A DNA stretch of 64,000 nucleotides from Malacoraja senta (GCA_038087875.1 CM075993.1:2606001-2670000); one strand, 5' to 3'. Positions 383 through 62,487 are shown, counted from the stretch's first letter. The notes: a model not told the origin generated them from the sequence alone. Numbers and translations: made by a program.

Positions 383-600
383 GTAGACAAAAATGCTGGA
401 GTAACTCAGCAGGTGAGGCAGCATCTATGGAGTGAAGGAAATAGGCAACGTTTCGGGTCGAAACCCTTCTTCAGAGGATAGGTTTCGGCCCAAAACATTG
501 TCTATTTCCTTTGCTCCATAGATGCTGCCTCACCCTTTGAGTTTCTCCAGCATTTTTGTCTACCTTGGATTTTCCAGCATCTGCAGTTCCTTCTTAAACT
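383..600. mobile_element. PLE-derived fold-back element inserted in a CR1 3' end
   Basis: Inverted arms aatgctggag...gcatctatggag / ctccatagatgc...ctccagcatt. Intact core CTGAAGAAGGGTTTCGACCCGAAACGTT on the minus strand at 474-447. Confidence 0.75.
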
Positions 601-2040
601 TAACTATCCAAGTACCTGTCTGTTTCTTAAATGTTGGGATAGTCCCAGCCTCAACTACCTCCTCTGGCAGCTTGTTCCATACACCCACCACTCTTTGCGT
701 GAAAAAGTTACCCCTCAGTTTCGTTAAATCTTTTCACCTTCACCTTCCTCTTATCCTCCATTCCCCTACTCTGGGCAAGAGACTTTTTTTTCCATTTATA
801 ACTAGCCGATTAACCTACAAACCTGCACGTCTTTGGAGTGTGGGAGGAAACCAAAGATCTCGGAGAAAACCCACGCAGTCACAGAGAATGCATAAACTCC
901 ATCCAGCCGGGATAATATAATGGGAGAAATTAGATCCCACAAATTCCAGAATCTGAGCCCCACAAATTAACGGGTACTTTGATCGGCTTCTTTCAAGCAG
1001 GTACTTTTGATCCATTACCTTGATATTAGTAGAAATATACTGGAATAAAGGATTATATCACCAAGAGACAAAATAGTGATTGAGGAGAGTCCATTTGGAT
1101 TTATAGACCGACTGGATGTTTGAGAAGGTACCCAGTGGAAGCCAGCATGTCACACATTTGCATTTTCAGGTTTTACAATGACCCACAGGAGGCTAGTGAA
1201 CAAGCACATGGAGCTGGGAGCAATATGCAACTATGACCCAAGTTGGTTGATAGAAAGAATACAGTAATACATGTCTATAGACAATAGGTTCCCGGTGAGA
1301 GGGCCTGAACATCGGGCTGCCCGTAGCGGTGACTACGGGGTGCTCGGGAGGCCCCGACCACGGTTGAACATTGGGGAACATCAGCGAGGAGGTTGACTGG
1401 ACTTTGGTTCCTTCCCTCACAGTGGGGAACTTTGGTGCCGCTGTGGGGATGTTTGTGTTGTGGACTACTGTGTTCTGTGTTTTTTTAATTTTATTTTTTT
1501 GTATGACTAAGGGAAAAATAATGTTGTTCTCTTCATTGAAGACAATGACAATAAATTAAATCAAATCAATAGGTGCAGGAGTAGGTCATTCGGCCCTTCG
1601 AGCCAGCACCCCACCATTCACTATGATCATCCACAATCAGTACCCCGATCCTGCCTTCTCCCCATATCCCTCGACTCCGCTATCTTTTAGAGCTCTAACT
1701 CTTTCTTGAAAGCATCCAGAGAATTGGCTTCTACTGCCTACCGAGGCAGAGAATCCCAGATTCACAACTCTCTGGGTGAAAGATGGTAAATTGGTCTTTC
1801 GCAGGTTGGCTTCAGCTGGGATACCATGGGGACCCGTGCTCAGTAATACGGCAAGTGGAACACAATAGCACTCAAGCAGAAACACAAAACATAAGAGGTG
1901 GCACAGTATAGAGTTGCTGCCTTGCAGCACCGGAGACAGGCGTTCGATCCCGACTGTGGGTGCAGTCTGGATGAAGTTTGTCTATTCTTCCAGTGCCCTG
2001 CGTGTGTTTTCTCCGGGTGCTCCGGCTTCCTCCCACACTC

Positions 2041-3237
2041 ATAGATGCATAGAAAATAGGTGCAGGAGTAGGCCCTTCGGCCCTGCACCGGCATTCAATA
2101 TGATCATGGCTGATCATCCAACTCAGTATCCTGTACCTGCCTTCTCTCCATACCCCCTGATCACTTTAGCTACAAGGGCCACATCTAACTCCCTCTTAAA
2201 TATAGCCAATGAACTGGCCTCAACTACCCTCTGTGGCAGAGAGTTCCAGAGATTCAGCACTCTCTGCGTGAAAAAGTTTTTCCTCATCTCGGTCTTAAAG
2301 GATTTCCCCTTATCCTTAAGCTGTGACCCCTTGTCCTGGACTTCCCCAACATCGGGAACAATCTTCCTGCATCTAGCCTGTCCAACCCCATAAGAATTTT
2401 GTAAGTTTCTATAAGATCCCCTCTCAATCTCCTAAATTCTAGCGAGTATAAGCCGAGTCTATCCAGTCTTTCTTCATATGAAAGTCCTGATTCCTGGGAT
2501 GTGTCTGGTGAACCTTCTCTGCACTCCCTCTATGGCTATAATGTCCTTCCTCAGATTTGGAGACCAAAACTGTATGCAATACTCCAGGTGTGGTCTCACC
2601 AAGACCCTGTACAACTGCAGTAGAACCTCCCTGCTCCTATACTCAAATCCTTTTGCTATGAAAGCTAACATACCATTCGCTTTCTTCACTGCCTGCTGCA
2701 CCTGTATGCCTACTTTCAATGACTGGTGTACCATGACACCCAGGTCTCGCTGCATCTCCCCTTTTCCTAATCTGCCACCATTTAGATAATAGTCTGCTTT
2801 CCTGTTTTTGCCACCAAAGTGGATAACCTCACATTTATCCACATTATACTGCATCTGCCAAACATTTGCCCACTCACCCAGCCTATCCAAGTCACATTGC
2901 AGTCCCCTAGCATCCTCCTCACAGCTAACACTGCCCCCCAGCTTAGTGTCATCCGCAAACTTGGATGTTGCCTTTAATTCCCTCATCCAGATCATTAATA
3001 TAAATTGTAAATAGCTGGGGTCCCAGCACTGAGCCTTGTGGTACCCCACTAGTCACTGCCTGCCATTGTGAAAAGGACCCGTTTACTCCTATTCTTTGCT
3101 TCCTGTCTGCCAGCCAGTTCTCTATCCACATCAATACTGAACCCCCAATACCGTGTGATTTAAGTTTGTATACTAATCTCTTATGTGGGACCTTGTCGAA
3201 AGCCTTCTGAAAGTCCAGATACAACACATCCACTGGT
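2041..3237 (-). mobile_element. 5'-truncated CR1-clade LINE (RT C-terminal half and 3' tail) nested in a V-SINE
   Basis: Frameshifted ORFs with [33 protein letters not shown] and LVRPHLEYCIQFWSP. SINE sequence resumes on both sides (about 1897-2040 and 3238-3400). Confidence 0.92.
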
Positions 3238-3864
3238 TCTCCCACTCCAAAGACATACAGGTTTGTAGGTTTATTGGCTTTGTTAAAAAAGATGGTAAAT
3301 TGACCCTTGTGTTCAGGATAGTATGAAGTGCGTGCGTGCAGGGAGATCGCTGGTCGGCGTGGACCAAGTGCCCGGTTATATGCTATGCCTCTAAATTAAA
3401 TTGAGTAATGGTATAGGCCAATTAAACACTCAATGTGATTATGACTCGTCTATTCTATCTTCTCATATCCCTCATTACCAATCTTACCTTTATCGACCCA
3501 TCTACTAAATATAGTTAACAACATGGATCCAGTCTCAAGGTACACAAGTCTACAGCTTTGCCACAGAGTGATTTTTCATCAGTCCTAGTTATTTTATCGC
3601 TCGTTTTGAAACAGCGATCCTTTGCTTTGGATATCTCAGTCTGCAGAAGCAGCATCCCATCACAGTCAGTCTATCCCATGTCAGGATCACGATTGACAAA
3701 TGTGATCGACCGAGGGGCTGCATTACTCTTGGTCAGAAGATCGTAAAGGGCTACGGTTTCCCGAATATATTTACTCTAAACGCCACTTCCAAGCAAGACC
3801 GCAGAGCACAAGTACCTGTTGGTTTATATGAGGGCAGACAATCCAGTCGAAAACAGTTCTTGTT

Positions 3865-3906
3865 AGAAAAAAGACAAAATGGACACTGTGTAAGCTAGTT
3901 TTTAAT
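3865..3906 (-). terminator. Probable PKM polyadenylation signal (ATTAAA, 3906-3901) with downstream U/GU-rich element; 3'UTR about 480 nt
   Basis: Minus strand reads ATTAAAaactagcttacacagtgtccattttgtcttttttct. Confidence 0.65.
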
Positions 3907-4362
3907 TGATGTGATTTGCAAACATTCAACATTTAAACTGAATCCTACTCCTATAATTCACAACAGCATGTTGCACCAAGAATGATATCAGGCCCAATAT
4001 CAGACACACAGAATCAGGAAGGATTTAAACAATTTCTATATAATCCAGAACTAAAAATGTAACTAATGCACCAATTAATACTGGGATGTATTATTGGGCA
4101 CTAATTTTAACCAAAATATAAATAAAGGTTTGTGTGGTTAAGATGTACTTGCAGTACACCAAATGAAGCATCATATAATAGTCTTACATCAGGCAGCCTG
4201 GTGCTACACAGCAGAGCAAAATCAGGAGCAGAACATGTTACAAGGAAGATACATTTGCTTTAATTTGCTTAAGTGTTGGTGCTCTGCAGTACACAAAGCT
4301 ACAGCTGTCGAGAGGGAGGTGACACTGCAGTGGACATCAGATCCAAGTCCTACCCACCACGC

Positions 4363-27889
<23,527 letters not shown>

Positions 27890-33310: not shown

Positions 33311-33332
33311 TGCTTTAACTACTAATATAATT

Positions 33333-42552: not shown

Positions 42553-43008
42553 CATCCCCACCCTTGTCGTCCTACCAGTTCCACTGTTGGCATCCATGTA
42601 TCCCTGTCATTAGCACAAGTTCCCCAGCCAACAATGTGCCATTATGGACTCCACCCTTCCTGAGGTCACCTGTACCGGCCCTGTTCAGTTCTGCCCTTCT
42701 CTATCTTTCAGTCTGAAGAAGGGTTCTGACCTGAAACGGCGCCTAATCCATTTCTTCACAGATGCTGCCTGACCCACTGAGTTACTCCAGCATTTTGTGT
42801 CTATCTTCAGTCAAGTGTCCATTGTCCTTCTAGAGAAGTCTTGTGAACACGCTTCCCGTAAAACCAAGATCAATTCATGTGTGGCGCATCAAGCTAAACC
42901 TACACAAATCCCATTTTTCTATTCCCCCCTCCCCACATTCCCATCAACTCCTCCCCATCTTCTTGGCTTTTATCTTTCTTCCTCTGCCACTTTATTTCCT
43001 TTGACAAA

Positions 43009-43301
43009 GTGTTTAAGAAGGAACAGCAGATGCTAGAAAATCGAAGGTAGACGAAAATGCTGGAGAATGCAAGGTAGACAAAAGGTAGACAAAAATGCTG
43101 GAGAATGCTGGAGAAACTCAGCGGGTGCAGCAGCATCTATGGAGCGAAGGAAATAGGCAACGTTTCGGGCCGAAACCCTGAAGGAAATAGGCAACGTTTC
43201 GGGCCGAAACCCGGAAGGGTTTCGGCCCGAAACGTTGCCTATTTCCTTCGCTCCATAGATGCTGCAGCACCCGCTGAGTTTCTCCAGCATTTTTGTGTAC
43301 C
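43009..43301. mobile_element. PLE-derived fold-back element with internal duplications
   Basis: Inverted arms. 14-bp flanking direct repeat ttatttcctttgac (42992-43005, 43302-43315). Confidence 0.8.
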
Positions 43302-44827: not shown

Positions 44828-45260
44828 TTCAGTTTAGTTTATTGTCACATGTACCGAGGTACAGTGAAAACCTTTTTGTCGTGTGCAAACCAGTCAGCAG
44901 GAAGACAATACATGATCACAAGTCTGAAGAAGGGTCTTGACCCGAATCGTCACCCATTCCTTCTCTCCAGAGATGCTGCCTGTCCCGATGAGTTACTCCA
45001 GCATTTTGCGTCTACACATGATTACAATCGATCCATTTATGGTGTATAGATGCATGATAAGGGAATAATGTTTTGTGCAAGATAAAGCCAGCTAAGTCCG
45101 ATCAAGAATAGTCTGAGGGTCATCAAAGAGATAGATAGTAGTTCAGCACTGCTCTCTGGTTGTGGTAGGATGATTCAGTTGCCTGAGAACAGCTGGGAAG
45201 AAACTATCCTTGAATCTGGAGGTGTGCGTTTACACACTTCTGTACCTTTTGCGTGATGGG
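44828..45260 (-). mobile_element. Unclassified non-LTR retroelement 3' end (copies near 17560-17870, 38540-39020, 45680-45740, 60470-60690)
   Basis: Shared tttattgtcacgtgtaccgaggtacagtgaaaagc block with a (ctaaa)n tail on the opposite strand. Confidence 0.6.
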
Positions 45261-46030
45261 ATTATTTCTCCAGTGATGTTCGAGCACTGGGGAGCTTTGG
45301 AGCTTACCTCCGATATAAGAGATGTGGGGAAAGTGAGTCAGGACCCAGCCTTCAGCCATGACTCTACTGAATGATGGAACATGGGTTCACCAGCCTGCTC
45401 CTGTTCCTTCGATGTGCACGTTAAGCGTCTTTTTCAACATCCTAATTATTATTTAATGTGTCTCCGGAGTGAGAATGCACAGCCTTCGGAATTAGAACAA
45501 AAGTGGTCGCTGTAAATCACAGCTAACGCCCGAGAGACGATAGTTTGGAGAAGGACGGATGGACACAAGAAAATAGGAGGAGGAATAGGCCACTCGGCCC
45601 CTCATGCCAGCCCTGCTGTTCAATGTGATCATGGCCAATCTCTCCTGGGCCTCATTTTCTCTTCTGTGCTAATTCCTCTTAGTTTAGTTTGTTGTCATGT
45701 GTACCGAGGTACAGTGAAAAGCTTTTTTGTTGATTACAATAGGAATGCTTAATGGCAGTTTATATTGGGTGCCTTATCCCTCTGTTACACACAATATTAA
45801 TATCACATAACTTTAAAAGATATTGTTCTAACATATGTATATCACAAATACCTTGGCCCCATAGCAGAAGCGTCCACTTGGCGGGGCTGGAAACTGGAAG
45901 TATCCTGAGCTAATTCTGCTACCACCATCAACTATTGCAACAAGTGATGGCTCCCACTGATTGTCGCCGGAAGCTTGCGTCCTTTTCAGGACGGACGATG
46001 ACAGCGAGGTCAACTTTTGAAACATGGAAG

Positions 46031-46227
46031 TGTTAAAGAAGGAACTGCAGATGTTGGAAAATCGAAGGTACACAAAAATGCTGGAGAAACTCAGCGGGTG
46101 CAGCAGCATCTATGGAGCGAAGGAAATAGGTAACGTTTCGTGGCCGAAACCCTCGAAACGTTACCTATTTCCTTCGCTCCATAGATGCTGCTGCACCCGC
46201 TGAGTTTCTCCAGCATTTTTGTGTACC
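46031..46227. mobile_element. PLE-derived fold-back element
   Basis: Inverted arms. 15-bp flanking direct repeat tttgaaacatggaag (46016-46030, 46228-46242). Confidence 0.8.
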
Positions 46228-46687
46228 TTTGAAACATGGAAGATGGACATGAAAGAAGAAGACAAATACCTTTAAAAGAAGATATATTTCTAATGAATAT
46301 TGCAATAACTTTACAAGATATTTATCTAAGTAGCACATATGTAGAGCTGCTGCTTCACAGCGACAGATACCTGGGTTTGATCTTTCCCTCGGGTGTTGTC
46401 CATGCAGAGTTTGTACGTTCACCCTGCGACTGCGTGTGTTTCCTCCCACATTCCAAAGACGTGCGGGCTTGTAGGTTCATTGGCCTCTGTAAATTTCCCT
46501 CAGTGTGTAGGGAACGGATGCGAAAGTGGGATAACATAGAACTAGTGTGAATGGGTAATCGGTCTTGACTCAGTGGGCTGAAGGGCCAGTTTCCATGCTC
46601 TACCTCTGAACTAAAACTAAAAATTATCATACTAGCTTTAAAAGAAGATATTTTTTATAATGCATGTCATTATAAATGACAACATGT

Positions 46688-47040
46688 GCACAAAATCATG
46701 AGAGGAATAGATCGGGTAGATGCACAGAGTCTCTTGTCCAGAGTAGAGGAATCGAGGAGCAGAGGACATAGGTTCAAGGTGAAGGGGAAAAGATTTAATA
46801 GGAATCCGAGGGGTAACTTTTTCACACAATGGGTGGTGGGTGTATGGAACAAGCTGCCAGAAGAGGTAGTTGTGGCTGGGACTATCCCATCGTTTAAGAA
46901 ACAGCTAGACAGGTGCATGGATAGGACAGGTTTGGAGGGTTATGGACCAAGCGTAGGCAAGTGGGACTAGTGTAGCTGGGATATTGTTGGCCAGTGTGGG
47001 CACGTTGGGCTGTTTCCACACTGTATCACTCTATGACTCT
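46688..47040 (+). mobile_element. CR1 3' fragment (similar copies near 262-785, 20450-20810, 21665-21915, 36970-37265, 37590-37840, 43650-43905, 44040-44470, 49765-50490, 59805-60130)
   Basis: KIMRGIDRVDAQSLLSRVEESRSRGHRFKV...VWNKLP and a cactctatgactctat tail. Confidence 0.85.
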
Positions 47041-47289
47041 ATAACTTTAAAATATATTTTTCTATTGCATATACATCTTTAAAAGATGATGCCTTTCTAA
47101 TGCTCATCATAATTTTTAAAGAATATATTTCTTATTATTATCTTGTAACTTCAAAAGAAGATATTTTCAATGTATATTACGATAACTTTGATATTTTTCC
47201 AATGTATCTCACAGTATGTTTAAAAGATTATTTACAATATATACAACAACTTTAAAAGATAATTTTCTAATGAATTTGACAATGTTAAA

Positions 47290-47632
47290 AGATTCCACTG
47301 TATATCACAATAATTTTAAACAATATTTCTCTACTGTATATCACAATTACTTTAAACAATATTTCACTAGTATATCACAATAACTTTATATGATATTTCT
47401 CTACTGTATATCACAATACCTAAACAATATTTATCTACTGTATATCACAATATCTTTAAATAATATTTCTCTACTGTATATCACAATTACTTTAAATAAT
47501 ATTTATCTACTGTATATCACGATACCTAAACAATATTTCTCTACTGTATATCACAATATCTTTAAATAATATTTCTCTACTATATCACAATATCTTTAAA
47601 TAATATTTCTCTACTGTATATAACAATATCTT
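47290..47632. repeat. AT-rich minisatellite, unit about 35 bp, about 10 copies
   Basis: Unit aatatttctctactgtatatcacaatatctttaaat. Degenerate copies extend left toward 47040. Confidence 0.9.
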
Positions 47633-49094
47633 CTTGCAATGGTATATTAGCTGCGAAAAGCCGATAGCCTTGGGCATTCCAGGCTTACTGCTGAATAGAA
47701 CTAATTGGAGGGAATAGCAGTCGGCACACAGTGCCAGAGACGAGACACAACCCCTCACAGTTGTCTTGGTGTTGCTTTTGTACAGCTTAGGTTCAGATTT
47801 AAGTCACATGACCAGCTCGGCACCGAGCATGCCCGAACTAGCTCAGAGTGGAGCTTAATACAAGAGCTGGGAGGACACGGAGCTTGAGATTCATCCCTAT
47901 CCGCCCGCCTCTTGCTTCTGCCTCCTCGCTCCTGTCTCTCTGGTGGCCAGCACACCAACAGGCATAGAACAAAATCCGCATCGTTCACAGTGAGTACCCA
48001 TCATTGTTCCATGGCTCTTTTAATCAAACAATGACAATAGAGGATGCTGCTAAATGGCATTAAACCCACCTACCCGCCTGTTCCAAGAGAAAGAAAAAAA
48101 ATCCCCCAACCAGCCCTGGTCTTTGTTGCTGTTTCTGCATCTGTAAATTCCATGCTTGCGTTTATTTCTCTGTGGCTGTTTGCAGGTTTGGTCAAATTAC
48201 AGCAGGAGCATATTAGTCAACCAGTTGTGGGTGACATACCGTGGATCTGTCATCCCTCCCCACACTCACAATGGCTTTGGCCCACTCTTGGGCCTGTCTG
48301 TTGCTGATTGCGTGGAAATGAGAGGAGAAGAAAGTAATTTGTGAAACAAGACTGTCTCACTCCACATCTGAATATTCCTTCAGGTGTTTAGTCTTTAAAA
48401 TGCTACGGATGTTAAATCACCTTTGTAAGCGATTTATTCTGATTTAGCCCTCTTGTCAGTGAAGGAAATGAATTTTGTGTGTTCTGGATTAGATCATCCA
48501 AAGCATTGAATGTGTTGGTTGTGTCTGTTGTTGCACTGGCTTCTAGTTTCCATTGTAATATTATCTTTGCAATAAAATGTGTCAATTTGGCTGTCGGTCA
48601 GGCTTTCTGGCCCAGTTTTTAATCTTGAACAATGGCTAGTTTGTGCTAACGGATTTGAATTTCATTGGTTTAAATTCATTTCCTTTGAATGACTTGTTTA
48701 AAGAGAAAAAAAATAAATATGAGGTAGGAGGGTTATGGAACTGTGCATTGGTTGTGAATTTGGTGTTTGTGGTGACTGTTTTGTTTGCCATCCACGGAAC
48801 AACTAACAAGTGAGACACCCTTAAGTGTGGCGTTACCCTCCAGTCTCGCAGTCCTGCGTTCACATTTTTTGAGTTGGGCAAGTCCGATTTCTCTGCGAGT
48901 TTTTCCTGCGTTAATTGAGTTGGTCCTGGGGCTTTTAGCGGTCTCGTCTCAGCACCACTTCTCATTGCTACACAATTATCAACATCAGCAATATCCACGG
49001 GACGGTGGGAGCAGGGATTTGGGCTTTAAAAAGGGGAACACTGGCACTAGACGTTCATCGGCCACCTGTGTGACCCGCAACGACCGGAGTTTAT

Positions 49095-49340
49095 TTGTGT
49101 GGGATGGAACTGCAGACGCTGGTTTACAACAAAGACAGACGCATGATGCTGGAGTAACTCAGCGGGTCAGGCGGCATCTCTGGAGAAAAAGATTAGGTGA
49201 TGTTTCGGGTCGAGACCCTTCTTCAGACCCTGTCTGACTCTCCCAGTCTGAAGAAGGGTCTCGACCCGAAACATCACCAATTCCTTCTCTCCAGAGATGC
49301 TGCCTGACCCGCTGAGTTACTCCAGCATTTTGTGTCTATA
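49095..49340. mobile_element. PLE-derived fold-back element with hammerhead-like core on both strands
   Basis: tttcgggtcgagacccttcttcagac...gtctgaagaagggtctcgacccgaaa. 12-bp flanking direct repeat accggagtttat (49083-49094, 49341-49352). Confidence 0.8.
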
Positions 49341-49904
49341 ACCGGAGTTTATAGTTAGAACGATTTGTCACACGGACTTAACTTAGTGAAGATTATTTTA
49401 TTTTTTATTGAGTGCGTTTAATGTGAGCTTGCCTGGTCTTTAGCCACAATGATAGCCTCCATTGCCATGCATTTGGATACATTTGCATTCAGCTATATCT
49501 AAATTAATAATGTCCAGGTCAGTCTGTGTGTTTCTGAGGGTTTTGAGGAGGTTTGAAGCAGAGGTTTGCAGCCTGGGACCATTGACTGGGACATTGTGGT
49601 GGAAAAGGACACATCTTATTGTACCCACAGTTAAGCAACACAAGCTCAGGGCTTTGTGGCATATGCAGTACATATGTGTCCGCTATTGTATTTGCTCAAC
49701 AAGTATCGGTCCACTGAAGTCCATGGAGCCAGAATAAAGCCAGATTTTAGACTTTTTTTTCTAGAAACATAGACAATAGGTGCAGGAGTAGGCCATTCGG
49801 CCCTTCGAGCCAGCACCGCCATTCAATATGATCATGGCTGATCATCCAAAATCAGCACCCCGTTCCTGCTTTCTCCCCATATCCCTTGAATCCATTAGCC
49901 CTAA

Positions 49905-50221
49905 AGGGGCTGTCCCACTGTACGAGCTAATTCAAGAGTTCTCCTGAGTTTCCCCTGATTCGAACTCGGAGAATTACGGTAATGGCCGCTCGTAGGTACT
50001 CTGGGCTCTCGTGGACATTTTTCAACATGTTGAAAGAACTTCACGAGTCTTCACGAGCTTACCTCGTTTCCCGAGTACCTGCCGTTAGCGTTACGAGCCG
50101 CTAAGAGAAGTCCCCAGCTCCGACCTACCCGCTACGTACATTCTACGTGCTTACCACTAGTTTGATTTTTTTTTAAACTCGGGAGAGCTCTTGAATTACC
50201 TCGTACAGTGGGACAGGCCTT
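49905..50221. mobile_element. PIF/Harbinger-type MITE nested in a CR1 3' end
   Basis: TIRs of about 40 bp, ggggctgtcccactgtacgagctaattcaagag / ctcttgaattacctcgtacagtgggacaggcc. TAA/TTA flanks. Confidence 0.78.
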
Positions 50222-51420
50222 TTAGAGATAAATCTAACTCTCTTGAATACATCCAGTGAATTGGCCTCCACTGCCTTCTGTTGCAGAGCATTCCACAGAT
50301 TCACAACTCTCTGGGTGAAAATGTTTTTCCTAAATGGCCTACCCCTTATTCTTAAACTGTGACCCTGGTTCTGGACTTCCCCCAACATAGGGAACATTTT
50401 TCCTGCATCTAGCCTGTTCAATCCCCGAAGAATTTTATGTTCCCCTCTCATCCTAAATTCCAGTGAATATAAGGCCAGTCGATCCATTCTTTAGAGGTAA
50501 AGCATGGAAATAGGCCCTTCGGCCCACCGAGTCACACCGATGAGTGATCCCCATTCACTAACACTATCCTACACATTCAGAATAATTTATAATTTTACCT
50601 GCAATTAACCTACAACCCTGTACATCTTTGGGTTGGGAGGAAACCGGAGCACCCGGAGAAAACCCACATGGTCGCAGTGAGAAAGTCCAAACTCCTTACG
50701 GACAGCACCCGTAGTCAGGATTGAACCTGGTTCTCTGGCACTGTAAGGCAGCAACTCTGCTGCCGAGCCACTGTGCCGCCCTGTGTTAGGGGCATTCAGC
50801 TCTCATGCAGTGCATCATCAGAGAATGCACTTGATGCGCGTCATAGAGTGGTACAGCATGGAAGTAGGCCCTTCAGCCCATCATATCCATGCTGACCAAG
50901 GTGCCCCATCTAAGCTAGTCTTATTTACCCGAAATGGGGCATCTAATTCATTCTACTCTGAATTCGTAAATGAATGCTTACCACACAATTCCAAACTCAA
51001 CTGTACACTGTTAATATTTGTCGCCACGTCGAGTCATAGAGTGATACAACGTGGAAACAGGCCCTTCGGCCCAACTTGCCCACACCGGCCAACATGTCCC
51101 ATCTACACTAGTCCCACCTGCCTGTGTTTGGTCCATATCCCTCCAAACCTGTCTTATCCATCCAACATCTCCAGGATATACCCAGTAAAACATTCCAAAA
51201 CTTACATTGAGTGACATTGAGTGAATAATAATCATGATACCAAAATCCTTCTAATCTTCTTTTAGCCCTTTAACTGTCATGGTTACTTTACCTTTTTGTC
51301 CATTTCCTTTGATTTGTCACGGTGACAATGAATCGCTCTCTCTCAAAGCCCAATATTAAAATCTCACACAAATTGTAACTTTAAAAGTTGTATTAATTCA
51401 TTGTGGTTCGGGCTCTCAGT

Positions 51421-51560
51421 GGGGTGGGCGATTGCAACCTTCACGTGGTCCGCCCTGTTTCGACAAATGCAATCAACCTGGCGTGCACATTCAAATAAGA
51501 TCAAATAGAACAAGTTGTCCTACAACTTTAGGGTGTGCACGCCACACGCAAGAAGAAGAA
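51421..51560 (+). mobile_element. (GAA)n-tailed retroelement 3' fragment (second copy reversed at about 44250-44375)
   Basis: 10-bp flanking direct repeat ggctctcagt (51411-51420, 51561-51570) and an aagaagaagaa tail. Confidence 0.7.
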
Positions 51561-52139
51561 GGCTCTCAGTCGGCCCAGAACATTGTTATATAGGAGGGGG
51601 GGGAGGAGGGGGGAGTGGGGAAAGCATTGACTACGTTCAATGTGACCCTTTCCTCCCTACTCAAAAGCACACCAGTGCTAAAACAAGAGGCCAATTAAAC
51701 TTGTGACCCAGTCAGAGGGTGTCCGAATTATTCCTTGCGTTAATCCAGGTCAGTCTTTGTGATTTTGAAGAGTTGGAAAGGACTGGGGTTCAGTCTGGGA
51801 CATCGTGGCGGTGAATGATGCAGATCTTGCTGAAGCTGCAGATTTGCCTTTCTAACTCAACCAGGAATGATGGAGAAGCAATATAGTTGTTGCCATGGGC
51901 TTTGGGGGAGGTTTGTAAATTAGGCCTCAGGTGTACACACACCAGAAGGCGAGAGTCGACTATTCACACCATTGGTACACAAAAATGCTGGAGAAACTCA
52001 GCGGGTGCAGCAGCATCTATGGAGCGAAGGAAATAGGCAACGTTTCTGGCCGAAACCCTTCTTCAGACCATTGCACTGAGGATTTTACGACCTCTGTTTA
52101 AGAAAGCACTGCAGACGGGCCTGCCCCGCGGGTGAAGCA

Positions 52140-52880
52140 TGTATGGTCGTGAGTAGTCGCCCAAAGAGTCGTACCTTTTTCTGGTCGCCGCTGGATTTTC
52201 AACATGTTGAAAATTTTCGGAGACCTGCTGCGACGATGACGGGTGCCGGCAAGTCGCCGAAAAAATCGCGTAAGTGGGACAGGCCCTTTAGTTCCACTTT
52301 GTATTTGCCAAAGGGTAATTTACAGAGGCCAATTAACCAAACAAGCCGCACGTTCTTTGGGATGTGGGAGGAAACCAAAGCATTATTAGGAAGCCCACAC
52401 GGTCACTGGGAGAAGGTGCAAACTCCACACAGACAGTACCTGGGGTCAGAACCATACACACTCTCCCATTATTCTGATGTTCTTGAGTCCACAACTTTGC
52501 TTTCTCAAGGAGACAAAATTGCAAACACAGTGAACCCTTGCAATAGTGGACCACGGGGGGGGGTCTGGTGTCTGTTGTTGCCGATTGTCCGCTATAAGTG
52601 GGTGAGGGAGGGGGGGGGGAGTTTGACCCAAGGCTGGGAGGGAAGAAACGCGGTGTTGTGGGGGGGGGGTGGGTTAAACAATTTTGAATTCACAGGCCGA
52701 GGAGCCAGGCGACATCGCGGGGTGACGCCTGTATGGCCGTGAATAGTCGCCCAAAGAGTCGTACCTCTTTCTGGTCGCCGCTGGATTTTCAACATGTTGA
52801 AAATTTTCAGCAACCTGCTGCGACGATGACGGGTGCCGGCAAGTCGTCGAAAAAATCACGTAAGTGGGACAGGCCCTTTA
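52140..52880. repeat. Two direct copies (about 52140-52290, 52730-52880) of a Harbinger-MITE right end
   Basis: Near-identical 150-bp blocks, both ending aagtgggacaggcccttta. Confidence 0.75.
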
Positions 52881-53136
52881 GGATACTTCAGACCTGGCCT
52901 CTTCTACTATTTGTGATGCTATTTATATGAATAGAAGAGCAGGAGTAGACCTCTCAGATCCTGTTGTCTGGTCTGCCAGTCAATATCAGGATTAATGCTT
53001 CATCTTGATTCTATTTCCAGCCAAGCCTCCATGTTAATATCCAACATAAGACTGTAAGAAACTGGAATGGAGCAGGCCATTCAGCCCCTTAAGCCTGCAG
53101 TACCATTCAATAAGTTCATGGCTTAGTCTATATATA

Positions 53137-54749
53137 CAGTGGCTTGCAAAAGTATTCATACCCCTTGAACTTTTCCACATTTTGTCACATTACAACCACA
53201 AACGTAAATGTATTTTATTGGGATTTTATGTGATAGACCAACACAAAGTGGTGCATAATTGTGAAGTGGAAGGAAAATGATACATGGTTTTCAAATTTTT
53301 TTACAAATAAAAAACTGAAAAGTGTCGCGTGCAAAAGTATTCAGCCCCCCTGAGTCAATACTTTGTAGAACCACCTTTCGCTGCAATTACAGCTGCAAGT
53401 CTTTTGGGGTATGTCTCTACCAGCTTTGCACATCTAGAGACTGAAATTTTTGCCCATTCTTCTTTGCAAAATAGCTCAAGCTCAGTCAGATTGGATGGAG
53501 AGCGTCTGTGAACAGCAATTTTCAAGTCTTGCCAGAGATTCTCAATTGGATTTAGGTCTGGACTTTGGGCCATTCTAACACATGAATATGCTTTGATCTA
53601 AACCATTCCATTGTAGCTCTGGCTGTATGTTTAGGGTCGTTGTCCTGCTGGAAGGTGAACCTCCGCCCCAGTCTCAAGTCTTTTGCAGACTCTAACAGGT
53701 TTTCTTCCAAGATTGCCCTGTATTTGGCTCCATCCATCTTCCCATCAACTCTGACCAGCTTCCCTGTCCCTGCTGAAGAAAAGCATCCCCACAGCATGAT
53801 GCTACCACCACCATGTTTCACAGTGGGGATGGTGTGTTCAGGGTGATGTGCAGTGTTAGGTTTCCGCCACACATAGCGTTTTGCATTTAGGCCAAAAACT
53901 TCAATTTTGGTCTCATCTGACCAGAGCACCTTCCTCCACATGTTTGCTGTGTCCCCCACATGGCTTGTGGCAAACTGCAAACGGGACTTCTTATGGCTTT
54001 TTTTCAACAATGGCTTTCTTCTTGCCACTCTTCCATAAAGGCCCGATTTGTGGAGTGCACGACTAATAGTTGTCCTGTGGACAGATTCTCCCACCTGAGC
54101 TGTGGATCTCTGCAGCTCCTCCAGAGTTACCATGGGCCTTTTGGCTGCTTCTCTGATCAATGCTCTCCTTGCCCGGCCTGTCAGTTTAGGTGGACGGCCA
54201 TGTCTTGGTAGGTTTGCAGTTGTGCCATACTCTTTCCATTTTCGGATGATGGATTGAACAGTGCTCCGTGAGATGTTCAAAGCTTGGGATATTTGTTTAT
54301 AACCTAACCCTGCTTTAAACTTCTCCACAACTTTATCCCTGACCTGTCTGGTGTGTTCCTTGGGCTTCATGATGCTGTTTGTTCACTAATGTTCTCTAAC
54401 AAACCTCTGAGGCCTTCACAGAACAGCTGTATTTATACTGAGATTAGATTACACACAAGTGGACTCTATTTACTAATTAGGTGACTTCTGAAGGCAATTG
54501 GTTGCACTGGATTTTATTTAGGGGTATCAGAGTAAAGGGGGCTGAATACTTTTGCACGCGACACTTTTCAGTTTTTTATTTTTTTTTTAATTTGAAAACC
54601 ATGTATCATTTTCCTTCCACTTCACAATTATGCGCCACTTTGTGTTGGTCTAGCACATAAAATCTCAATAAAATACATTTACGTTTGTGGTTGTAACGTG
54701 ACAAAATGTGGAAAAGTTCAAAGGGTATGAATACTTTTGCAAGCCACTG
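53137..54749 (-). mobile_element. Tc1/mariner DNA transposon, IR-DR type, Passport-like; 1613 bp
   Basis: Termini TA|CAGTGGCTTGCAAAAGTATTCA...TGAATACTTTTGCAAGCCACTG|TA. TIRs of about 213 bp (53137-53349, 54537-54749), each with inner and outer TGCAAAAGTATTCA direct repeats. TA target duplication. Confidence 0.97.
53355..54370 (-). pseudogene. DD34E Tc1 transposase with a single frameshift near 53566
   Basis: ORFs 54370-53552 and 53573-53355 join at ...LEWP|(SQ)SPDLNPIENLW.... Shows paired-like HTH, GRPPKL, WSDETK and QQDNDPKH. Restoring 4 nt gives 339 aa. Confidence 0.95.
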
Positions 54750-55974
54750 TATATCAGCAACATTTTAAACCTATTTCTCTTTCCTAACTTAATATATAAA
54801 AATCGATGAACCTCTGTCTTTAGAATTTAGAGACACAGCACCGAAGGTATACACAAGATGCTGGGGTAACCCAGCAGGACAGGGGCAGAAGGAATGGGTG
54901 ATGTTTCGGGTCGAGACCCCATTCCTTCTCTCCAGAGATCCTGCCTGTCTCGCTGAGTTATTCCAGCATTTTGTGCATATCTTCGGTGTAAACCAGCATC
55001 TGCAGTCCCTTCCTACACAGAGAGAAACAGGCACTTTGGCCCACAATGGTTCTTGACAACACACCAGGACACTGAGACCACTGAATCCTGTTCCATGGTG
55101 CTCGGAGACTACAGTCCAGTGGGTGCGATTGAAGAAAGAAGGGGAATGCAAGGGACTGCAGATGCTGGAATCTTGAGTAGAACGCACAAGTGCTGGAGGA
55201 GCTCAGCGGCCCAGGCAACATCTGTGAAGGGAAATAGAGCCATGTCGATTTTGGTTGGGACCTGATGAGAGTAAAGTCTCAGAACCTTCATGCCAAGGGA
55301 GAAACATCAAAGACTAGAGGGCAGAGCATCAAGGAGAGAGTTTAAATGAGGTGAGCAGGACATGGTCTTCACACAAAGTGGTGGGTGCTTGGAACAAGCT
55401 GTGAGGAGTGGTGGTGGAAGCAGATACGATAGTGGTATTTAAGATACGTTTTGATAGACACATGGTATGCCAGACTGGAGCGATATGGATCTCGTCCTGG
55501 CATGAGATTAGTTTAACTCTGCATCATTTTAATCACAGGCATGAATACTGTAGCACTCGCTCCTGTGCCTTACTGTTCTATACGCTTGTAGAAGGACCCC
55601 ATCCTGAAATGCTATCTGTCCATTGCTACATTGCTGCCTGGACTACCATAAAAGCAAAGTAGGAGGCCATTTGTCCCATAGGATTCATTCTGCCCCCCAA
55701 TCCCATCAATGGCATCTCCCCTCTCCTTATTTCCCTGTTGTCCAGCAATTGTATTCTCTCTCACAGCTCATCAACTCCACTTTGATTTGTTTGCCTCTTA
55801 TCTACTCTTTGGGTATGTTACAACCAATTAACCTACCATCACATTTTTGGGAGGAAACCCACATGGCCATGGAGAGAACGTGCAAACTCCACACAAACAG
55901 CATCCAAAGCCAGGCCTGAACGCAGGACTCGGGAGCTGTTACACAGCAGTACTACCTGCTGCACCATTGTGGTC

Positions 55975-56181
55975 GAAGACAGACACAAAATGCTGGAGTA
56001 ACTCAGCGGGACAGGCTGCGTCTCTGGAGGAAAGGAATGGGTGACGTTTCAGGTCGAGTCTGAAGAAGTCTCGACCTGTAACGTCACCCATTCCTTCTCA
56101 CCAGAAATGCTGCCTGACCCGCTTAGTTACTCCAGCATTTTGTGTCTATCTTTGGTGTAAACCGGCAACTGCGATTCCTTC
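55975..56181. mobile_element. PLE-derived fold-back element
   Basis: 16-bp flanking direct repeat ctgcaccattgtggtc (55959-55974, 56182-56197). Confidence 0.8.
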
Positions 56182-57077
56182 CTGCACCATTGTGGTCCTT
56201 GTGTATTTGATGTTACATGGTAAATACTCCAGTAAGTGAGACTCCAGCAAGTAGATCACATTGCTGGTGAACACAGCATTAACAACCTGGATTTGGAATG
56301 GCATCTTTAACACATTGTACATTGCATTAAAGGTAAATATAAGGAACATGGACATAAAGCTTGGAGAAAATGACGATGGGTTGCCCAAAGACTTTATGCA
56401 ACATACCACCAAATTTAATTAGAGTGGTTCTTGACAATGTTTTCTAACACATCATCACCATTGACATATTGGCAGTGACTTCCTCTCATGGGGAGAAATT
56501 CTACATCTTCCTTGAAGATGTACTTCTCTTTTCAGTTTCCAAAGACAGCCTTACAAAGGAGATCAACTTCAAAGCTGATTAATTGAGCAAGAAAATTAAG
56601 GCATTAATAACCTACTGATGAATCAAACAGCCATCGGTGAAGAGATGCAGACAGCAACTGATGGCCTGGGGGATTGCCACGTGCTCGAAGTTTGCAGTGA
56701 AAGAGCCAACTTTTAGCTCTGTCCGCACTTAATCATAACAAGATCTCTTAAATAAATTCTTTGCTAATATTGCCTGCTATCACGAGACTGGATAATAAGG
56801 TGATAAGCCATAAGCGAGATGGAGCAGAATTAGGCCATTCAGCCCATCTAGTCTACTGCGCCATTCATTCATGGCTGATCTATCTCTCCCACCTAACCCC
56901 ATTCTCCTGCCTTTTCCCCATAACCCTTGACACCCGTACTAATCAGGAATCTATCTATCTCTGCCTTAAAAATATCCATTGATAATACAAGGAAGAAGCT
57001 ATTATGAGACAGCTAATAGATATGACAAACAAAACAAGGTGGGATAAAAAATAGACTACCACATTCATGCGTAAGGA

Positions 57078-57328
57078 GTTTACAGATTGTAGAAACAAGG
57101 AACTGCAGGTGCTGGTTTACAAAAAAAAAAGACAAAGTGCTGGAGCAACTCAATGGGACAGGCAACATCTCTGGAGAACATGGATAGGGGACGTTTCGAG
57201 TCGGGACCCTTCTACATCCTATCCATGTTCTCCAGAGATGCTGCCTGACCCGCTGAGTTACTTCAGCACTTTGTCTTTTTTTTTTGTAAACCAGCACCTG
57301 CAGTTCCTTGTTTCTACAATCTGTGAAC
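57078..57328. mobile_element. PLE-derived fold-back element with two full arms
   Basis: Long inverted arms with matching A10 and T10 runs. Confidence 0.8.
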
Positions 57329-58289
57329 GTAGTCATTTCACTTGCAGTCTTACTGTGCCATTTGAATTACTCCTAATGCATGAATTTACATTTAAGTTTG
57401 CAGATTTCTCCCGGACCGCCTCCTTGTCGCTTGCAATAAGACATCGCAACTTTGAGGATTTTTTTTAGTCTTCTGATCGGAAATTCGGGCTTCAAGAATT
57501 CTCTGCCTCTCAGTGGGAGAGGTCCCAGTGAGGTTTTGGTTTTGTTTGGATCTATTATTATCACTTGTACTGAGGTCTGGGATATAAGTACGGTAATTAA
57601 GAGGGAGTTAGATGTGGCCCTTGTGGCTAAAGGGATCAGGGGGTATGGAGAGAAGGCAGGTACGGGATACTGAGTTGGATGATCAGCCATGATCATATTG
57701 AATGGCGGTGCAGGCTCAAAGGGCCGAATGGCCTACTCCTGCACCTATTTTCTATGTATCTATGTATCTATGTAATAAGCGACTTGGATAAACGCAAACT
57801 TAGCTAAGCAATGTTCAGGAAGGAACTGCAGATGCTGGTTTAAACCGAAGATAGACACAAAAAGCTGGAGTAACTCAGCGGGTCAGACAGCATCTCAGGT
57901 GAAAAGGATTAGGTGATGTTTGGGATAGAGACCCTTCTTCTTCACCCCAAATGTCACCTATTCCTTTTCTCCAGAGATGTTGTCCGACCCGCTGAGTTAC
58001 TCCAGCTTTTTGTGTCTATCTTAGCTAAGCAGTACCTTAAGCCCACCCACCGCATTATTTCTGAGTTGCAAGTCTCGGTAGTTTCGGTTGCAATGCGCTA
58101 CTGCCGTTGCGTGCGGACGTTTCTGCAAGTCAGTTAGGTGTCTTCGTGGGTGCGCCCACACTGTGCAGGAAGGAACTGCAGATGCTGGTTTAAACCAAAG
58201 ACATACACAAAAAGCTGGAGTAACTCAGAGCATCTATGGAGAGAAGGAATACGTTTTCCCCAGCGATGAAGAAGAGGAGTTGAGTATCG

Positions 58290-59170: not shown

Positions 59171-60713
59171 ATGTTCTCTGCTCAGATACAGTAGCGGGTC
59201 ATAACTCAGTTCCATGGCACTGGATGCGAACATCACATCATGATGCCAGTGCTGCTGCCAACTTCAGCAACAGGCAGGCTTCCCTGCAACTAGCTCTTTG
59301 CATCCCGTGGAGCCTGGCACGGAGAAACATGCAATCCGAAATGTACAATCTCGCATTCTGTGCCACAGGAAGCTTGCAAACAAAATGCCCACATCCATAC
59401 CACGCGAGCAGCCAAGATGTACTTGATGGTAATCTGTTTGTAGCAGGAGCAGGAAAGCTGGTACACATTAGATCAGAATCACCTGTGGCTCACTAAATGA
59501 CCAGATGTTGAAACGGGGAACTGCAGGCTCTGGTTTACAAAAAAAGACATAAAGCGCTGGAGTAACTCAGCGGGTCAAGCAGCATCTCTGGACAGCACGG
59601 ATAGATGATGTTTCGGGTCGCGAGCTTTCTTCAGATTGAAGAAGGGTGCTGACCCGAAACATCACCTATCCGAGATCTCTAGGGATAATCCAAGTATCTA
59701 TTTACACCAAAGATAGACACAGAATGCTGGAGTAACTCAGCGGGACAGGCAGCATCTCTGGAGAGAAAGAATAGGGACCTTTTGGGTCAAAACCCTTCTT
59801 CAGACTGTTCCCAGCTACACTAGTCCCACCTGCCTGCGTTTGTTCCATATCCCTCCAAACCTATCCTATCCATGTGCCAGTCTAACTGCTTCTTAAACTT
59901 TGGCATAGTCAACTATCCTCTCTGGGATACCCTGGGGACAAGGGTACTCTGGGCGACAGACTCTGTGCATCTATCCGATCTATTCCTCATGGATTTTATA
60001 CACCTCTATAAGGTCACTCCCCATCCTCCTGCGCTCCAAGGAATAGAGTCTCACCTACTCAACCTTTCCCTGTAGCTCAGACCCTATAGACTTGGCGACA
60101 TCCTCGTAAATCATCTCTCTACCCTTTCCTGCTTGATCACTCTTGATCCAGCCTGATTCCTCTTGCTTGTGAGTCCCAACGCATTCTCAATGTCCTTTCT
60201 GTCACTGGTCATAATTGTTACTTCTGCACTGTGGCGTTTCTTTGTGAATTCATTTCTTATTTTATTCAGGATTGAGAAACAAATTCATATCTGACGAAGC
60301 AAAGGGAGTGATGAATCATCCTGTCTTTAGTCAAAATACGGACAAAGCAGAGCATTTAAAACGCATCTTCACCCAGTGAAAACATTTCCCAAATATATCT
60401 TCACATTCATTCCATCCATGTTGTTCGTAGATTGGCAGGGCTAGGCAACTTTTCTGAGATTCCAATATCAGTTGAGTTTATTGTCACGTGTACCGAGGTA
60501 CAGTGAAAAGCTTTTGTTGTGTGCTATCCAGTCAGCGGAAAGACAACACATGATTACAATCGAGCCGTTTACAGTGTATAGATATATGATAAGGGATTGG
60601 CGTTTAGTGCAAGGTAAAGGCAGCAAACTCCGAACAAGTTACTAATGAGGTAGATAATAGCTCAGCATTGCTCTCTAGTTGTGGTAGTTGTGGTTGTAAT
60701 ATCATTTGTGGGA

Positions 60714-61030: not shown

Positions 61031-61450
61031 ATCGCCATTGCAATTGTATTAGCAAATTATAAACGAGAGTTTGATGTATGCAAGCTTATGCTACTTGTGC
61101 AGATGTCCTATAATTTTCCCAGCATGGCTCCATCAGTCAGTGTGTGAAGACTTCACCCCTGTTCAACTCGGGAGTCTTCTGTCGCTCCTCTATCCCTGTG
61201 AAGTCATCTGCAAACCAGCTATTGTTCCGCTCCTGTTGGTAACATCTGTTAACCACTATGAGTCCCCAAATGCATTGGTCCCATGCTTTAGCGACGTCAG
61301 TGCCTCGTCCCCAGGGTATCCCAGTGAGCAGCTGCCCGGCCTATTCCCGCCGTTCTTTGTAGAAACAGTGTTAGGGAGGGAAGAGGCAAGCTGGGATTGG
61401 CAAGAGCTGGGGCAAGGGAAAGGACATTTGTGAAGGGACAGAGCCGACAG

Positions 61451-61612
61451 CAGGGGCTCCCAACCTTTCTCGTCCTGTTTACCCCCGGCAACTTTAATAG
61501 CACGTAACAATGTTATCTCACTTATTTATGAACACCTAATGATGAACAGACACCCATATACCCAAACCAAACAGTCAGCCAATGCGACATTTACCCCAGG
61601 TTAGAACCCTTG
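61451..61612. mobile_element. hAT-type MITE
   Basis: Termini CAGGGGCTCCCAACCT...AGGTTAGAACCCTTG. 8-bp flanks gccgacag / gcctacag. Confidence 0.7.
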
Positions 61613-61861
61613 GCCTACAGCAATGACAGGCATGACTCAGTAGATAAACAAATAGAAGGTATTAGTAAAATGTTGGAGAGTCCGCAAGTTTGGGTCTAAA
61701 ACAGGTAATTAGAGGGTGAGTGAGAGTAATTGTACACATTGTAGGAAATAGTGATAGAATGATTCTACAGCAGTGAGGAATAGAAAGAGATGGGGGGTGA
61801 AAGAGAGCATACAAGCACCTGCCATTTAGTCTGAAGAAGGGTCTCATTTATCATTTAAATC

Positions 61862-62358
61862 TTTTTATTTGAATTTCACAGCAATTTGCATACATACTAT
61901 GATAACAGACAGTGACAGTCAAGGCATAATTGTGCAACAGTATGTAAGTGACCCTCAAAACCCTTACCCTTACCCACCTTCAACCCACCCGAATCAGGTC
62001 GGAACCAAACGGGGACAAACAACACTCACATACGTACACATCCACACACATATGGTAAGGTAAACTAAACAAAAAGTACTAAAAAAATAAATAATAATAA
62101 AAAATAAAAAATAAAAAATACAGTAAATAAGTAAGTAATTAAATAAATAATTGTGGGGAGAGGGGGGGGGGGGATTAAGGGGAAAGCAGCTGCTGTAGAG
62201 CAAAACAATGGTGGAGAACACTCAGTCCTCTTCCGAGTCCGGGGACAAGTTGAGTGAGTTAACAAGTTCCAAGAAAGGGTTCCATGTATCTAGGAATGTC
62301 TTGGTAGAGCCTTTGAGAGAGAACCTAAGTTTTTCAAGCTTTAAATTGTAAAGCACCT
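61862..62358 (-). mobile_element. L1-clade LINE 3' end
   Basis: Minus-strand LKLEKLRFSLKGSTKTFLDTWNPFL* resembles a fish-type L1 ORF2 C-terminus, followed by a T-rich UTR and aataaaaa. Confidence 0.65.
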
Positions 62359-62487
62359 CTGAAGAAGGGTCTCGACCCGAAACGTCACCCATTCCTTCTC
62401 TCCAGAGATGCTGCCTGTCCCGCTGAGTTACTCCAGCTTTTTTGTGTCTATCTTCGGTGTAAACCAGCATCTGCAGTTCCTTCTGAC
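62359..62487 (+). mobile_element. PLE-derived half element with intact hammerhead-like core
   Basis: CTGAAGAAGGGTCTCGACCCGAAACGTC (62359-62386) followed by the family terminus. Confidence 0.75.

What the first reader, a model, noticed from the sequence alone, without database searches (positions are those of the whole stretch)
383..62487. Abundant fold-back elements carrying a hammerhead-ribozyme-like core, derived from Penelope 3' ends
Seen: roughly 30 short (100-300 bp) elements share one arm sequence and often occur as inverted pairs. The inner end of the arm reads CTGAAGA-A-GGGT(CTCG/TTCG)(A/G)CCC-GAA-ACGT-(C/T), intact at 62359-62386 (+), 474-447 (-) and about 24481-24453 (-). The same arm directly follows a GIY-YIG-type C-terminus at 5837-6172 and terminates the PLE remnant at 22195-23480. 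Established: this matches the hammerhead core CUGANGA / stem II / GAA-A...UH, and Penelope-like elements are known to carry minimal type I hammerheads with a tiny palindromic stem III (here ACGT or AACGTT) that can act as dimers. Inference: this is a non-autonomous, PLE-mobilised ribozyme-bearing family with at least three subfamilies. Caveat: I see only about 2 bp of stem I (gt before CUGA with ac after the cleavage triplet), and full fold-back pairing would compete with the ribozyme fold.
Basis: partly seen in the sequence, partly recalled or inferred. Interest (0 to 1): 0.78.

Follow-up and report, generated by a model that had tools for sequence, protein, structure and literature searches.

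The report
Penelope end stubs with hammerhead relics
These 37 short repeats in a cartilaginous-fish genome are end pieces of a Penelope-type jumping gene, twelve of them joined head to head as hairpins likely formed during insertion, and the tiny hammerhead-ribozyme motif they carry is a known feature of such elements that is broken or predicted to be masked in nearly all copies, so this is a known kind of thing.

Summary
In detail: 53 arms in 37 loci (0 in 5 shuffles), 12 loci with a head-to-head fold-back, subfamilies A, B, C plus an older type D. The arm is the end repeat (pLTR) of a Penelope-like element (PLE): it follows an RT/GIY-YIG remnant (22613-23329) and a 10-codon ORF end plus 3'UTR (5837-6046). 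The layout is the published one for PLE insertions: inverted copy, optional ~35-nt tail on one side (9 of 10 scorable fold-backs), variable 12-18 bp target duplications (9 of 37 loci; 2 of 1332 controls). The hammerhead core is invariant between subfamilies (11/11 vs 71/106, p=0.016) but decays like its neighbours among copies; only 3 of 53 arms keep core, stem II and the ACGT palindrome; stem I is 2 bp; fold-backs mask it by 31-52 kcal/mol (predicted). Half of the solo arms (12 of 24) begin 4 nt before to 1 nt after the core's first base and none at the predicted cut, so templates were likely uncleaved. A separate non-autonomous family is unproven; it stays open for B and C. This scan reached the same reading on other DNA several times. 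Interest low-moderate.

The parts
382..599 (.). Fold-back, subfamily B: short arm (-, full core 447-474) + long arm (+); 15-bp target duplication with 1 mismatch
5837..6172 (+). Last 10 codons of PLE ORF (5837-5866), 3'UTR, subfamily A arm with broken core and tail
6778..6866 (+). Solo short arm, B, core lacking one GAA; 14-bp target duplication
8996..9229 (.). Fold-back, B, with internal 34-bp duplication (9039-9105); the two arms carry different B variants
22195..23439 (-). Decayed PLE remnant: RT and GIY-YIG pieces (tblastn 22613-23439), 3'UTR, type D arm (22195-22294) without the core
24386..24485 (-). Solo short arm, A, full core 24454-24481
32454..32547 (+). Solo long arm, B, starting at +36; 14-bp target duplication
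39390..39559 (.). Fold-back, A; junction +12/-3, same as at 55974
40064..40272 (-). Solo long arm, A, with about 90 nt of PLE 3'UTR upstream; core partly deleted
40943..41130 (.). Fold-back, A, long + short
43010..43302 (.). Fold-back, B, long + short, internal duplications; 14-17-bp target duplication
44921..45014 (+). Solo short arm, A, starting at the AGT before the core; 12-bp target duplication
46031..46228 (.). Fold-back, B, long + short, arms 100% identical over 75 nt; 15-18-bp target duplication
49096..49339 (.). Fold-back, A, both cores present (ACAT at stem III), 12 nt of 3'UTR in the loop; 12-bp target duplication
51974..52068 (-). Solo short arm, B, core present, G10.1-C11.1 pair broken
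54839..55019 (.). Fold-back, A, short + long
55974..56187 (.). Fold-back, A, short + long; 15-bp target duplication
57084..57322 (.). Fold-back, C, long + long (the one exception to tail on one side)
57817..58022 (.). Fold-back, A, long + short; 12-14-bp target duplication
59506..59807 (.). Fold-back, C (59506-59686), interrupted by an A arm (59701-59807, -)
62358..62483 (+). Solo long arm, A, full core 62359-62386; best-preserved copy
8832..58250 (.). Remaining solo or same-strand arms: 8832, 14998, 16252, 16835, 26288, 34482, 34880, 35897, 40443, 40589, 41298, 41505, 42315, 42718, 44666, 55154, 58173

Best explanation
The repeats are short end pieces (pLTR stubs) of a Penelope-like retrotransposon, likely written into the genome by the element's own reverse transcriptase and endonuclease, and the hammerhead motif is likely an inherited, mostly dead passenger. 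Shown: the arm follows the PLE ORF end and 3'UTR; it has two preferred 3' ends about 35 nt apart; solo copies start mostly at the AGT just before CUGAAGA; pairs lie heads in, tails out, join inside the ribozyme region, carry the tail on one side and are framed by variable 12-18 bp duplications. Inferred (by analogy with the anole element PAc): the GIY-YIG domain nicks both target strands 12-15 bp apart; RT starts internally at one of two sites about 95 and 130 nt from the RNA's 5' end, copies through the uncleaved hammerhead and runs off that end. One cDNA gives a solo arm. Two cDNAs, one from each nick and one from each start site, meet by a few bases of homology in the self-complementary ribozyme region and give a fold-back. 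Copies then decay neutrally. The ribozyme would act, if at all, only in source transcripts, as a dimer through ACGU and with protein help.
For: PLE link: remnant finds P0001 (E 4.4e-4), whose relatives are shark and ray RT + GIY-YIG proteins; these map back to 22613-23439 (best E 2.6e-8) and carry a Cys-rich RT-EN linker. The 5837 piece ends like P0010; in public contigs the multi-copy stretch begins at 5837, 17 contigs of run X2 continue upstream with letters that I read by hand as the ORF's preceding residues, one X16 contig bridges 5837-6022 and runs on to AGTCTG, and 48/29/32 contigs of X2/X1/X7 run from the 3'UTR into an intact A core. Ends: solo arms 12 long, 11 short, 1 other of 24; fold-backs 9 long+short, 1 long+long, 2 unscorable (p=0.011 against random pairing). 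Target duplications 9 of 37 loci vs 2 of 1332 mismatched flank pairs, all different in sequence. 12 of 24 solo 5' ends at -4..+1, none at the cut (+28); the listed 'before' loose ends in 4 runs are at 62358, 62399, 62440, not 62387 (846 rows not shown). All 12 junctions lie at -12..+29. In 382 and 49096 the arm that reaches furthest 5' is the short one, and at 8996 the arms are different B variants, which self-copying of one cDNA would not give. Neutral decay: CpG 35/155; core 5/156 vs rest 48/1004, p=0.54. Literature: inverted pLTR, one-sided tail, 8-10 bp TSD (PMC3846280, PMC8557442); two internal RT starts, both strands extended, uncleaved RNA the main substrate (PMC11167929).
Against: No full-length PLE ending in arm A, B or C was seen: no genome was held and no single contig spans ORF to arm. 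B and C show no upstream PLE sequence in the window. Two pairs of fold-backs share or nearly share a junction (39390 with 55974; 8996 with 43010), which a master fold-back would also give. 25 of 37 loci show no duplication scoring 9 or more within the 24-nt flanks searched beyond the 9 counted (13 of 37 reach score 8). That AGT is the RNA's 5' end is inferred; it also reads as a splice acceptor. Arms of a pair are always the same subfamily (12 of 12) and in two pairs 98-100% identical, which fits self-copying or later gene conversion as well as two RNAs of one lineage. Core invariance between subfamilies (p=0.016) shows selection in sources, so 'passenger' applies to copies only.
Confidence: 0.72

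Rival explanations
1. One reading: one or more non-autonomous ~130-nt elements (solo arm, tandem or fold-back masters) are transcribed on their own and mobilised in trans by a PLE, like animal retrozymes; the hammerhead is kept because it is used.
For: Arms far outnumber ORF-linked copies (4 of 53 arms extend 8 nt or more upstream; 321,812 contig records laid on the arm in X2). Sharp 5' start. No ORF link for B or C. Direct head-to-tail joints (62484 to 62358) in 63 contigs of X2, 71 of X7, 3 of X15, 0 of X16 show tandem dimers elsewhere. Shared junctions in two pairs of fold-backs. Core invariant between subfamilies.
Against: No head-to-tail core dimer among 37 loci here; motif is of the minimal PLE type, not the canonical type I of retrozymes (PMC7229834 passages); no copy starts at the cut; at least 10 different junctions among 12 fold-backs; a sharp 5' start is also expected from run-off at the PLE RNA's 5' end.
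Confidence: 0.2
2. Fold-backs arise by snap-back: one cDNA reaches the RNA end, folds on itself in the palindromic ribozyme region and is copied back (a variant of the best explanation with one template).
For: Junctions sit in a self-complementary region; arms at 46031 are 100% identical over 75 nt including private changes, at 43010 98%; same subfamily in 12 of 12.
Against: A copy-back arm cannot be longer than the first arm, yet at 382 and 49096 the 5'-truncated arm carries the tail; at 8996 arms differ at variant-defining sites; mean arm-to-arm identity (0.78-1.00 per pair) is only slightly above identity to other copies.
Confidence: 0.15
3. The fold-backs are MITEs (DNA transposons with long terminal inverted repeats) and the core is a chance likeness.
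For: Hairpin shape; long ends finish in ...ACA; no Rfam hammerhead hit; no two-sided covariation in stem II.
Against: Asymmetric ends, solo arms in the majority, long variable duplications, direct continuity with a PLE ORF and 3'UTR.
Confidence: 0.02

Closest known systems
Insertion units of endonuclease-bearing PLEs: pLTR, adjacent inverted 5'-truncated copy, one-sided 30-40 bp tail, TSD (PMC3846280, parts 1-3 of 5 read; PMC8557442, passages)
   Same: Inverted copy at the 5' side, tail on one end, variable TSD, palindromic 5' end region; relatives carry the CX2-5CxxC linker named for Neptune-type PLEs.
   Different: Here the unit is reduced to the pLTR end alone (90-290 bp), at about 0.8 arms per kb, with a sharp 5' start just before the ribozyme core; TSDs 12-18 bp against 8-10 bp in the rotifer.
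[quoted passage not shown]
   Same: CUGANGA, extra base after A9, G10.1-C11.1, GAAA, palindromic 15.2-16.2, NUH; mostly single dispersed motifs, some pairs on opposite strands.
   Different: Helix I is 2 bp (paper: 4-5 bp typical; 2 bp in D. virilis Penelope) and helix II 4 bp (paper: 6-8 bp in its main examples). No chondrichthyan example in the text I read; its supplements were not read.
PAc, Poseidon element of Anolis carolinensis (PMC11167929, parts 1-2 of 4 read)
   Same: Two internal RT start sites that define the tail; uncleaved RNA as template; protein-assisted minimal hammerhead upstream of the start sites.
   Different: PAc is Penelope/Poseidon clade and its ORF begins inside the ribozyme; no ORF start was identified in this arm; head-to-head stubs were not studied in the parts read.
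Animal non-LTR retrozymes (PMC7229834, passages; bioRxiv 10.64898/2026.07.22.740005, part 1 of 5 and passages)
   Same: Non-coding, hammerhead-bearing, related to PLE pLTRs; reported in one chondrichthyan.
   Different: Retrozymes are head-to-tail arrays with a type I hammerhead in each unit, processed to circles; here copies are solo or head to head and the motif is minimal.

Membership tests
EN+ Penelope-like element (fragments) | RT plus C-terminal GIY-YIG ORF directly upstream of the repeat | tested here: met
   Type D remnant 22613-23439 and A-type ORF end 5837; not shown for B and C
EN+ Penelope-like element (fragments) | Optional 30-40 bp tail, on one side of inverted units | tested here: met
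   Two end classes; 9 of 10 scorable fold-backs long+short
EN+ Penelope-like element (fragments) | Variable-length target duplication | tested here: met
   9 of 37 loci vs 2 of 1332 controls
EN+ Penelope-like element (fragments) | Full-length copy with pLTR at both ends | not testable with these tools
   No genome held; metagenome and viral scans empty
Neptune-type clade | Cys-rich linker between RT and EN | tested here: inconclusive
   Present in 7 of 7 relatives inspected; that stretch is not recognisable in the decayed window remnant; no tree built
Minimal type I hammerhead of PLEs | Core CUGANGA, GAAA, U16.1-H17 | tested here: met
   11 of 11 core positions invariant in A, B, C consensuses; triplet GUC in A and C, GUU in B
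Minimal type I hammerhead of PLEs | Extra base after A9, G10.1-C11.1, palindromic 15.2-16.2 | tested here: met
   A and B consensus ACGU; C consensus of 8 copies shows ACAU, as CpG decay would give
Minimal type I hammerhead of PLEs | Helix II supported by covariation | tested here: inconclusive
   93.8% of cells paired in 20 copies but only one-sided changes, 54/500 shuffles as high; predicted pairing probability 0.09 or less in isolated RNA
Minimal type I hammerhead of PLEs | Helix I of 4-5 bp | tested here: not met
   2 bp (U-A, G-C; U.G, G-C in B), also with 47 nt of 3'UTR added; 2 bp is reported for D. virilis Penelope (PMC4209133)
Minimal type I hammerhead of PLEs | Self-cleavage as dimer or with protein | not testable with these tools
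   Only contigs were available; no copy starts at the predicted cut
Rfam hammerhead families | Score against covariance models | tested here: not met
   No hit
Non-LTR retrozyme | Head-to-tail repeats with a hammerhead in each unit | tested here: inconclusive
   0 of 37 loci in the window; head-to-tail joints in public contigs of 3 of 4 runs
Non-LTR retrozyme | Circular RNA | not testable with these tools
   No raw RNA reads offered
MITE | Symmetric terminal inverted repeats and fixed short TSD | tested here: not met
   Asymmetric ends, 12-18 bp variable duplications

The most novel reading that the evidence does not exclude
The stubs are a mass record of the first step of Penelope transposition: 'strong-stop' cDNAs that run from two internal start sites to the RNA's 5' end, with each fold-back made by a dimeric protein priming both target strands on two RNAs, one per start site, and the hammerhead region serving as the annealing joint instead of as a cutter; in subfamily B one such fold-back with a dead core became a master that spreads as a unit. 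With over 100,000 contig records per genome data set this would make the open question of PLE second-strand synthesis testable by counting.
Probability: 0.3. Interest if true: 0.55.

Novelty: new member of a known kind. Interest (0 to 1): 0.27.

Why it matters
As a ribozyme discovery it adds little: minimal hammerheads in PLE end repeats, inverted copies and one-sided tails are published. Its use is as a large natural data set on how PLEs integrate, which is still partly unknown: fixed 5' start, two 3' starts, strict long/short pairing and junction positions can be counted genome-wide. The family also fills about 8% of this window with arms, and 12 hairpins in 64 kb could give double-stranded RNA if they lie in a transcribed region (not tested).

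Tried and rejected
Whole genome not held. Rfam: no hammerhead; the miRNA-family hits on fold-backs are below gathering score and reflect generic hairpins. Pfam found nothing in the remnant's stop-free pieces or three read-through frames; a direct homologue search with one piece found nothing; a profile of 24 of the 26 relatives found only the 22967-23289 remnant, not 5837. DNA pattern scans of metagenome (2) and viral (1) contigs: 0 hits. The variant table shows no common change in CUGAAGA but is biased near alignment ends, so I did not use it as a conservation test; the first copy-level test (p=0.008) had the same bias and hidden source variants and was replaced (p=0.034 raw, 0.54 after dropping 11 recurrent-variant columns of 62). 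An extended stem I using 3'UTR sequence was not predicted. Look-up of earlier notes by sequence and by place gave nothing. Lunse et al. 2016 (PMC5785218) is not held; I saw only its reference line. Repbase and Dfam were not available, so a prior database entry for this family is not excluded.
Full report
Observation. An iterated profile from six window copies finds 53 arms in 37 loci, with no hit in five shuffled windows. Twenty-four loci are solo, twelve contain a minus-then-plus pair and one has two same-strand arms. Arms make up 5,211 bases. Best-reference assignment gives 29 A, 13 B, 8 C and 3 older D arms. The same sequence is abundant in public data: 16 of 23 listed runs hold half or more of the sampled words, and 321,812, 268,349, 5,127 and 4,190 contig records were laid on one arm in four runs (not a copy number).

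Origin. The remnant at 22.2-23.5 kb gave nothing in Pfam, but its read-through frame found one protein (E 4.4e-4) whose 25 longer relatives are led by shark and ray proteins with RT and GIY-YIG domains. These align back to 22613-23439 and seven of seven inspected have a Cys-rich linker before the endonuclease, which PMC8557442 names for Neptune-type PLEs. The host is therefore a cartilaginous fish; 'skate or ray' rests on my recall of its other repeats and on earlier scan notes. This remnant ends in a type D arm without the core. At 5837 there are only ten codons, ending like relative P0010. Public contigs support the link: the multi-copy stretch starts at 5837, loose ends before it read in frame (my hand translation) like the residues that precede the end in P0010, one contig bridges 5837-6022 and continues to the AGT before the core, and 48, 29 and 32 contigs in three runs pass from the 3'UTR into an intact A core. 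No contig spans the whole stretch. The 3'UTR recurs at 40184-40272 in front of another A arm (73% over 90 nt). No such link was seen for B or C.

Anatomy. Numbering from C3 of CUGAAGA as 0, twelve of 24 solo arms start at -4 to +1, three further upstream, two at +5/+6 and seven at +29 or beyond; none starts at the predicted cut, +28. Against a uniform spread over 94 positions, an arbitrary null, this gives p about 6e-9. The 3' ends fall in two classes about 35 nt apart (12 long, 11 short, 1 other). Of twelve fold-backs nine are long plus short, one is long plus long and two cannot be scored (p=0.011 for 9 of 10). Direct repeats scoring 10 or more flank 9 of 37 loci (6 of 12 fold-backs, 3 of 24 solos) against 2 of 1332 mismatched flank pairs; matches are 12-18 bp and differ in sequence. 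All twelve junctions lie between -12 and +29, seven have an arm reaching +2 or further 5', and at least ten are different; 39390 and 55974 share one, and 8996 and 43010 nearly so. This is the layout published for PLEs: inverted 5'-truncated copy, tail on one side, TSD (PMC3846280 parts 1-3; PMC8557442 passages).

The ribozyme motif. In sequence it meets the minimal hammerhead of PMC4209133 (parts 1-2 read): core, extra base after A9, G10.1-C11.1, palindromic 15.2-16.2. Eleven of eleven core positions are invariant across A, B and C against 71 of 106 downstream (p=0.016), though four downstream runs of 8-12 nt are equally invariant. B's two changes in paired positions both keep a wobble pair. 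Among A copies the core is not protected once recurrent source variants are removed (5/156 vs 48/1004, p=0.54; raw 97/1218, p=0.034; CpG 35/155). Ten of 53 arms keep the core pattern, four of these the ACGT, three also stem II. Stem II shows only one-sided changes in 20 copies. Stem I is 2 bp with or without the 3'UTR; the hammerhead-compatible fold costs 7-13 kcal/mol in solo RNAs and 31 and 52 kcal/mol in two fold-backs tested. Rfam models do not score. Cleavage could not be tested.

Mechanism. For the anole PLE, RT starts at two internal sites that define the tail, extends both target strands, uses uncleaved RNA, and the hammerhead cuts only with protein (PMC11167929, parts 1-2). Read with this, solo arms are cDNAs from either start to the RNA's 5' end; AGT resembles an initiator (my recall of the consensus; Penelope RNA is reported to start inside the upstream repeat, PMC2377424 passages) but also a splice acceptor. 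Fold-backs are best explained by two cDNAs, one per nick, joined in the self-complementary ribozyme region. Self-copying is argued against by tails on the more truncated arm (382, 49096) and by different variants in the two arms at 8996, and argued for by near-identical arms at 46031 and 43010. These steps are inferred.

Against this reading, or left open: no full-length element seen; no ORF link for B and C; two shared junctions; head-to-tail joints in public contigs (63, 71, 3 and 0 contigs in four runs), which show that dimers able to pair through ACGU exist elsewhere and could behave like retrozymes (PMC7229834 passages; bioRxiv 10.64898/2026.07.22.740005 part 1 and passages, which reports retrozymes in one chondrichthyan; its supplements are closed and those of PMC4209133 were not read, and either may list this family).

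Novelty. Searches for Penelope with skate and inverted repeat (1 unrelated paper) and with cartilaginous fish and palindrome (0 papers) found no description of this family in the held library; Repbase and Dfam were not searchable. The kind is well known. Earlier notes of this scan on other DNA, seen after I had stated my reading, reach the same view; they are not independent evidence. Verdict: real, a new member of a known kind, interest 0.27.

Noticed in passing
window 45843-45920 (+): HDV-like ribozyme fold close to Rfam's mammalian CPEB3 model (29.7 bits, gathering 35; E 7.6e-4 in the whole window): 7-bp P2 identical to the model, 6-bp P1 with swapped pairs, one G.G mismatch in P3. Single copy in the window; short recalled CPEB motifs found no exon; the 36-aa frame behind it has no Pfam hit; no paper found with CPEB3 ribozyme, retrotransposon and shark. 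Earlier scan notes tie such heads to Vingi-type retroelements (not tested here). A B fold-back inserted 110 nt downstream.
   Followed up: partly
window 9039-9105 and 43146-43218: The same 34-bp tandem duplication (stem II to just past the cut site) inside two B fold-backs, on the short arm in one and the long arm in the other, so likely independent slippage.
   Followed up: partly
arm positions +46 to +120, e.g. 62405-62478: CCAGCA(T) occurs twice, one upstream of each 3' end class, and a GAUGCUG segment can pair with either; predicted nested hairpin in A and B. Candidate RT recognition structure.
   Followed up: partly
public contigs laid on 62320-62510: Direct head-to-tail joints of long end to 5' start (127-nt unit) in 3 of 4 runs; none in this window.
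   Followed up: no
window 53132-54754: Tc1-like DNA transposon: 225-nt inverted repeats at 94% and a 275-aa transposase frame at 53552-54382.
   Followed up: no
window 33333-34296 and 47297-47632: Tandem arrays with 82-bp and 34-36-bp units; single units like the second lie just upstream of the HDV-like fold.
   Followed up: no
window 2123-3395, 37600-37838, 58134-58782, 63523-63984: Fragments of a LINE with a weak RT hit; the fold-back at 382 is inserted in such a fragment's end region.
   Followed up: no
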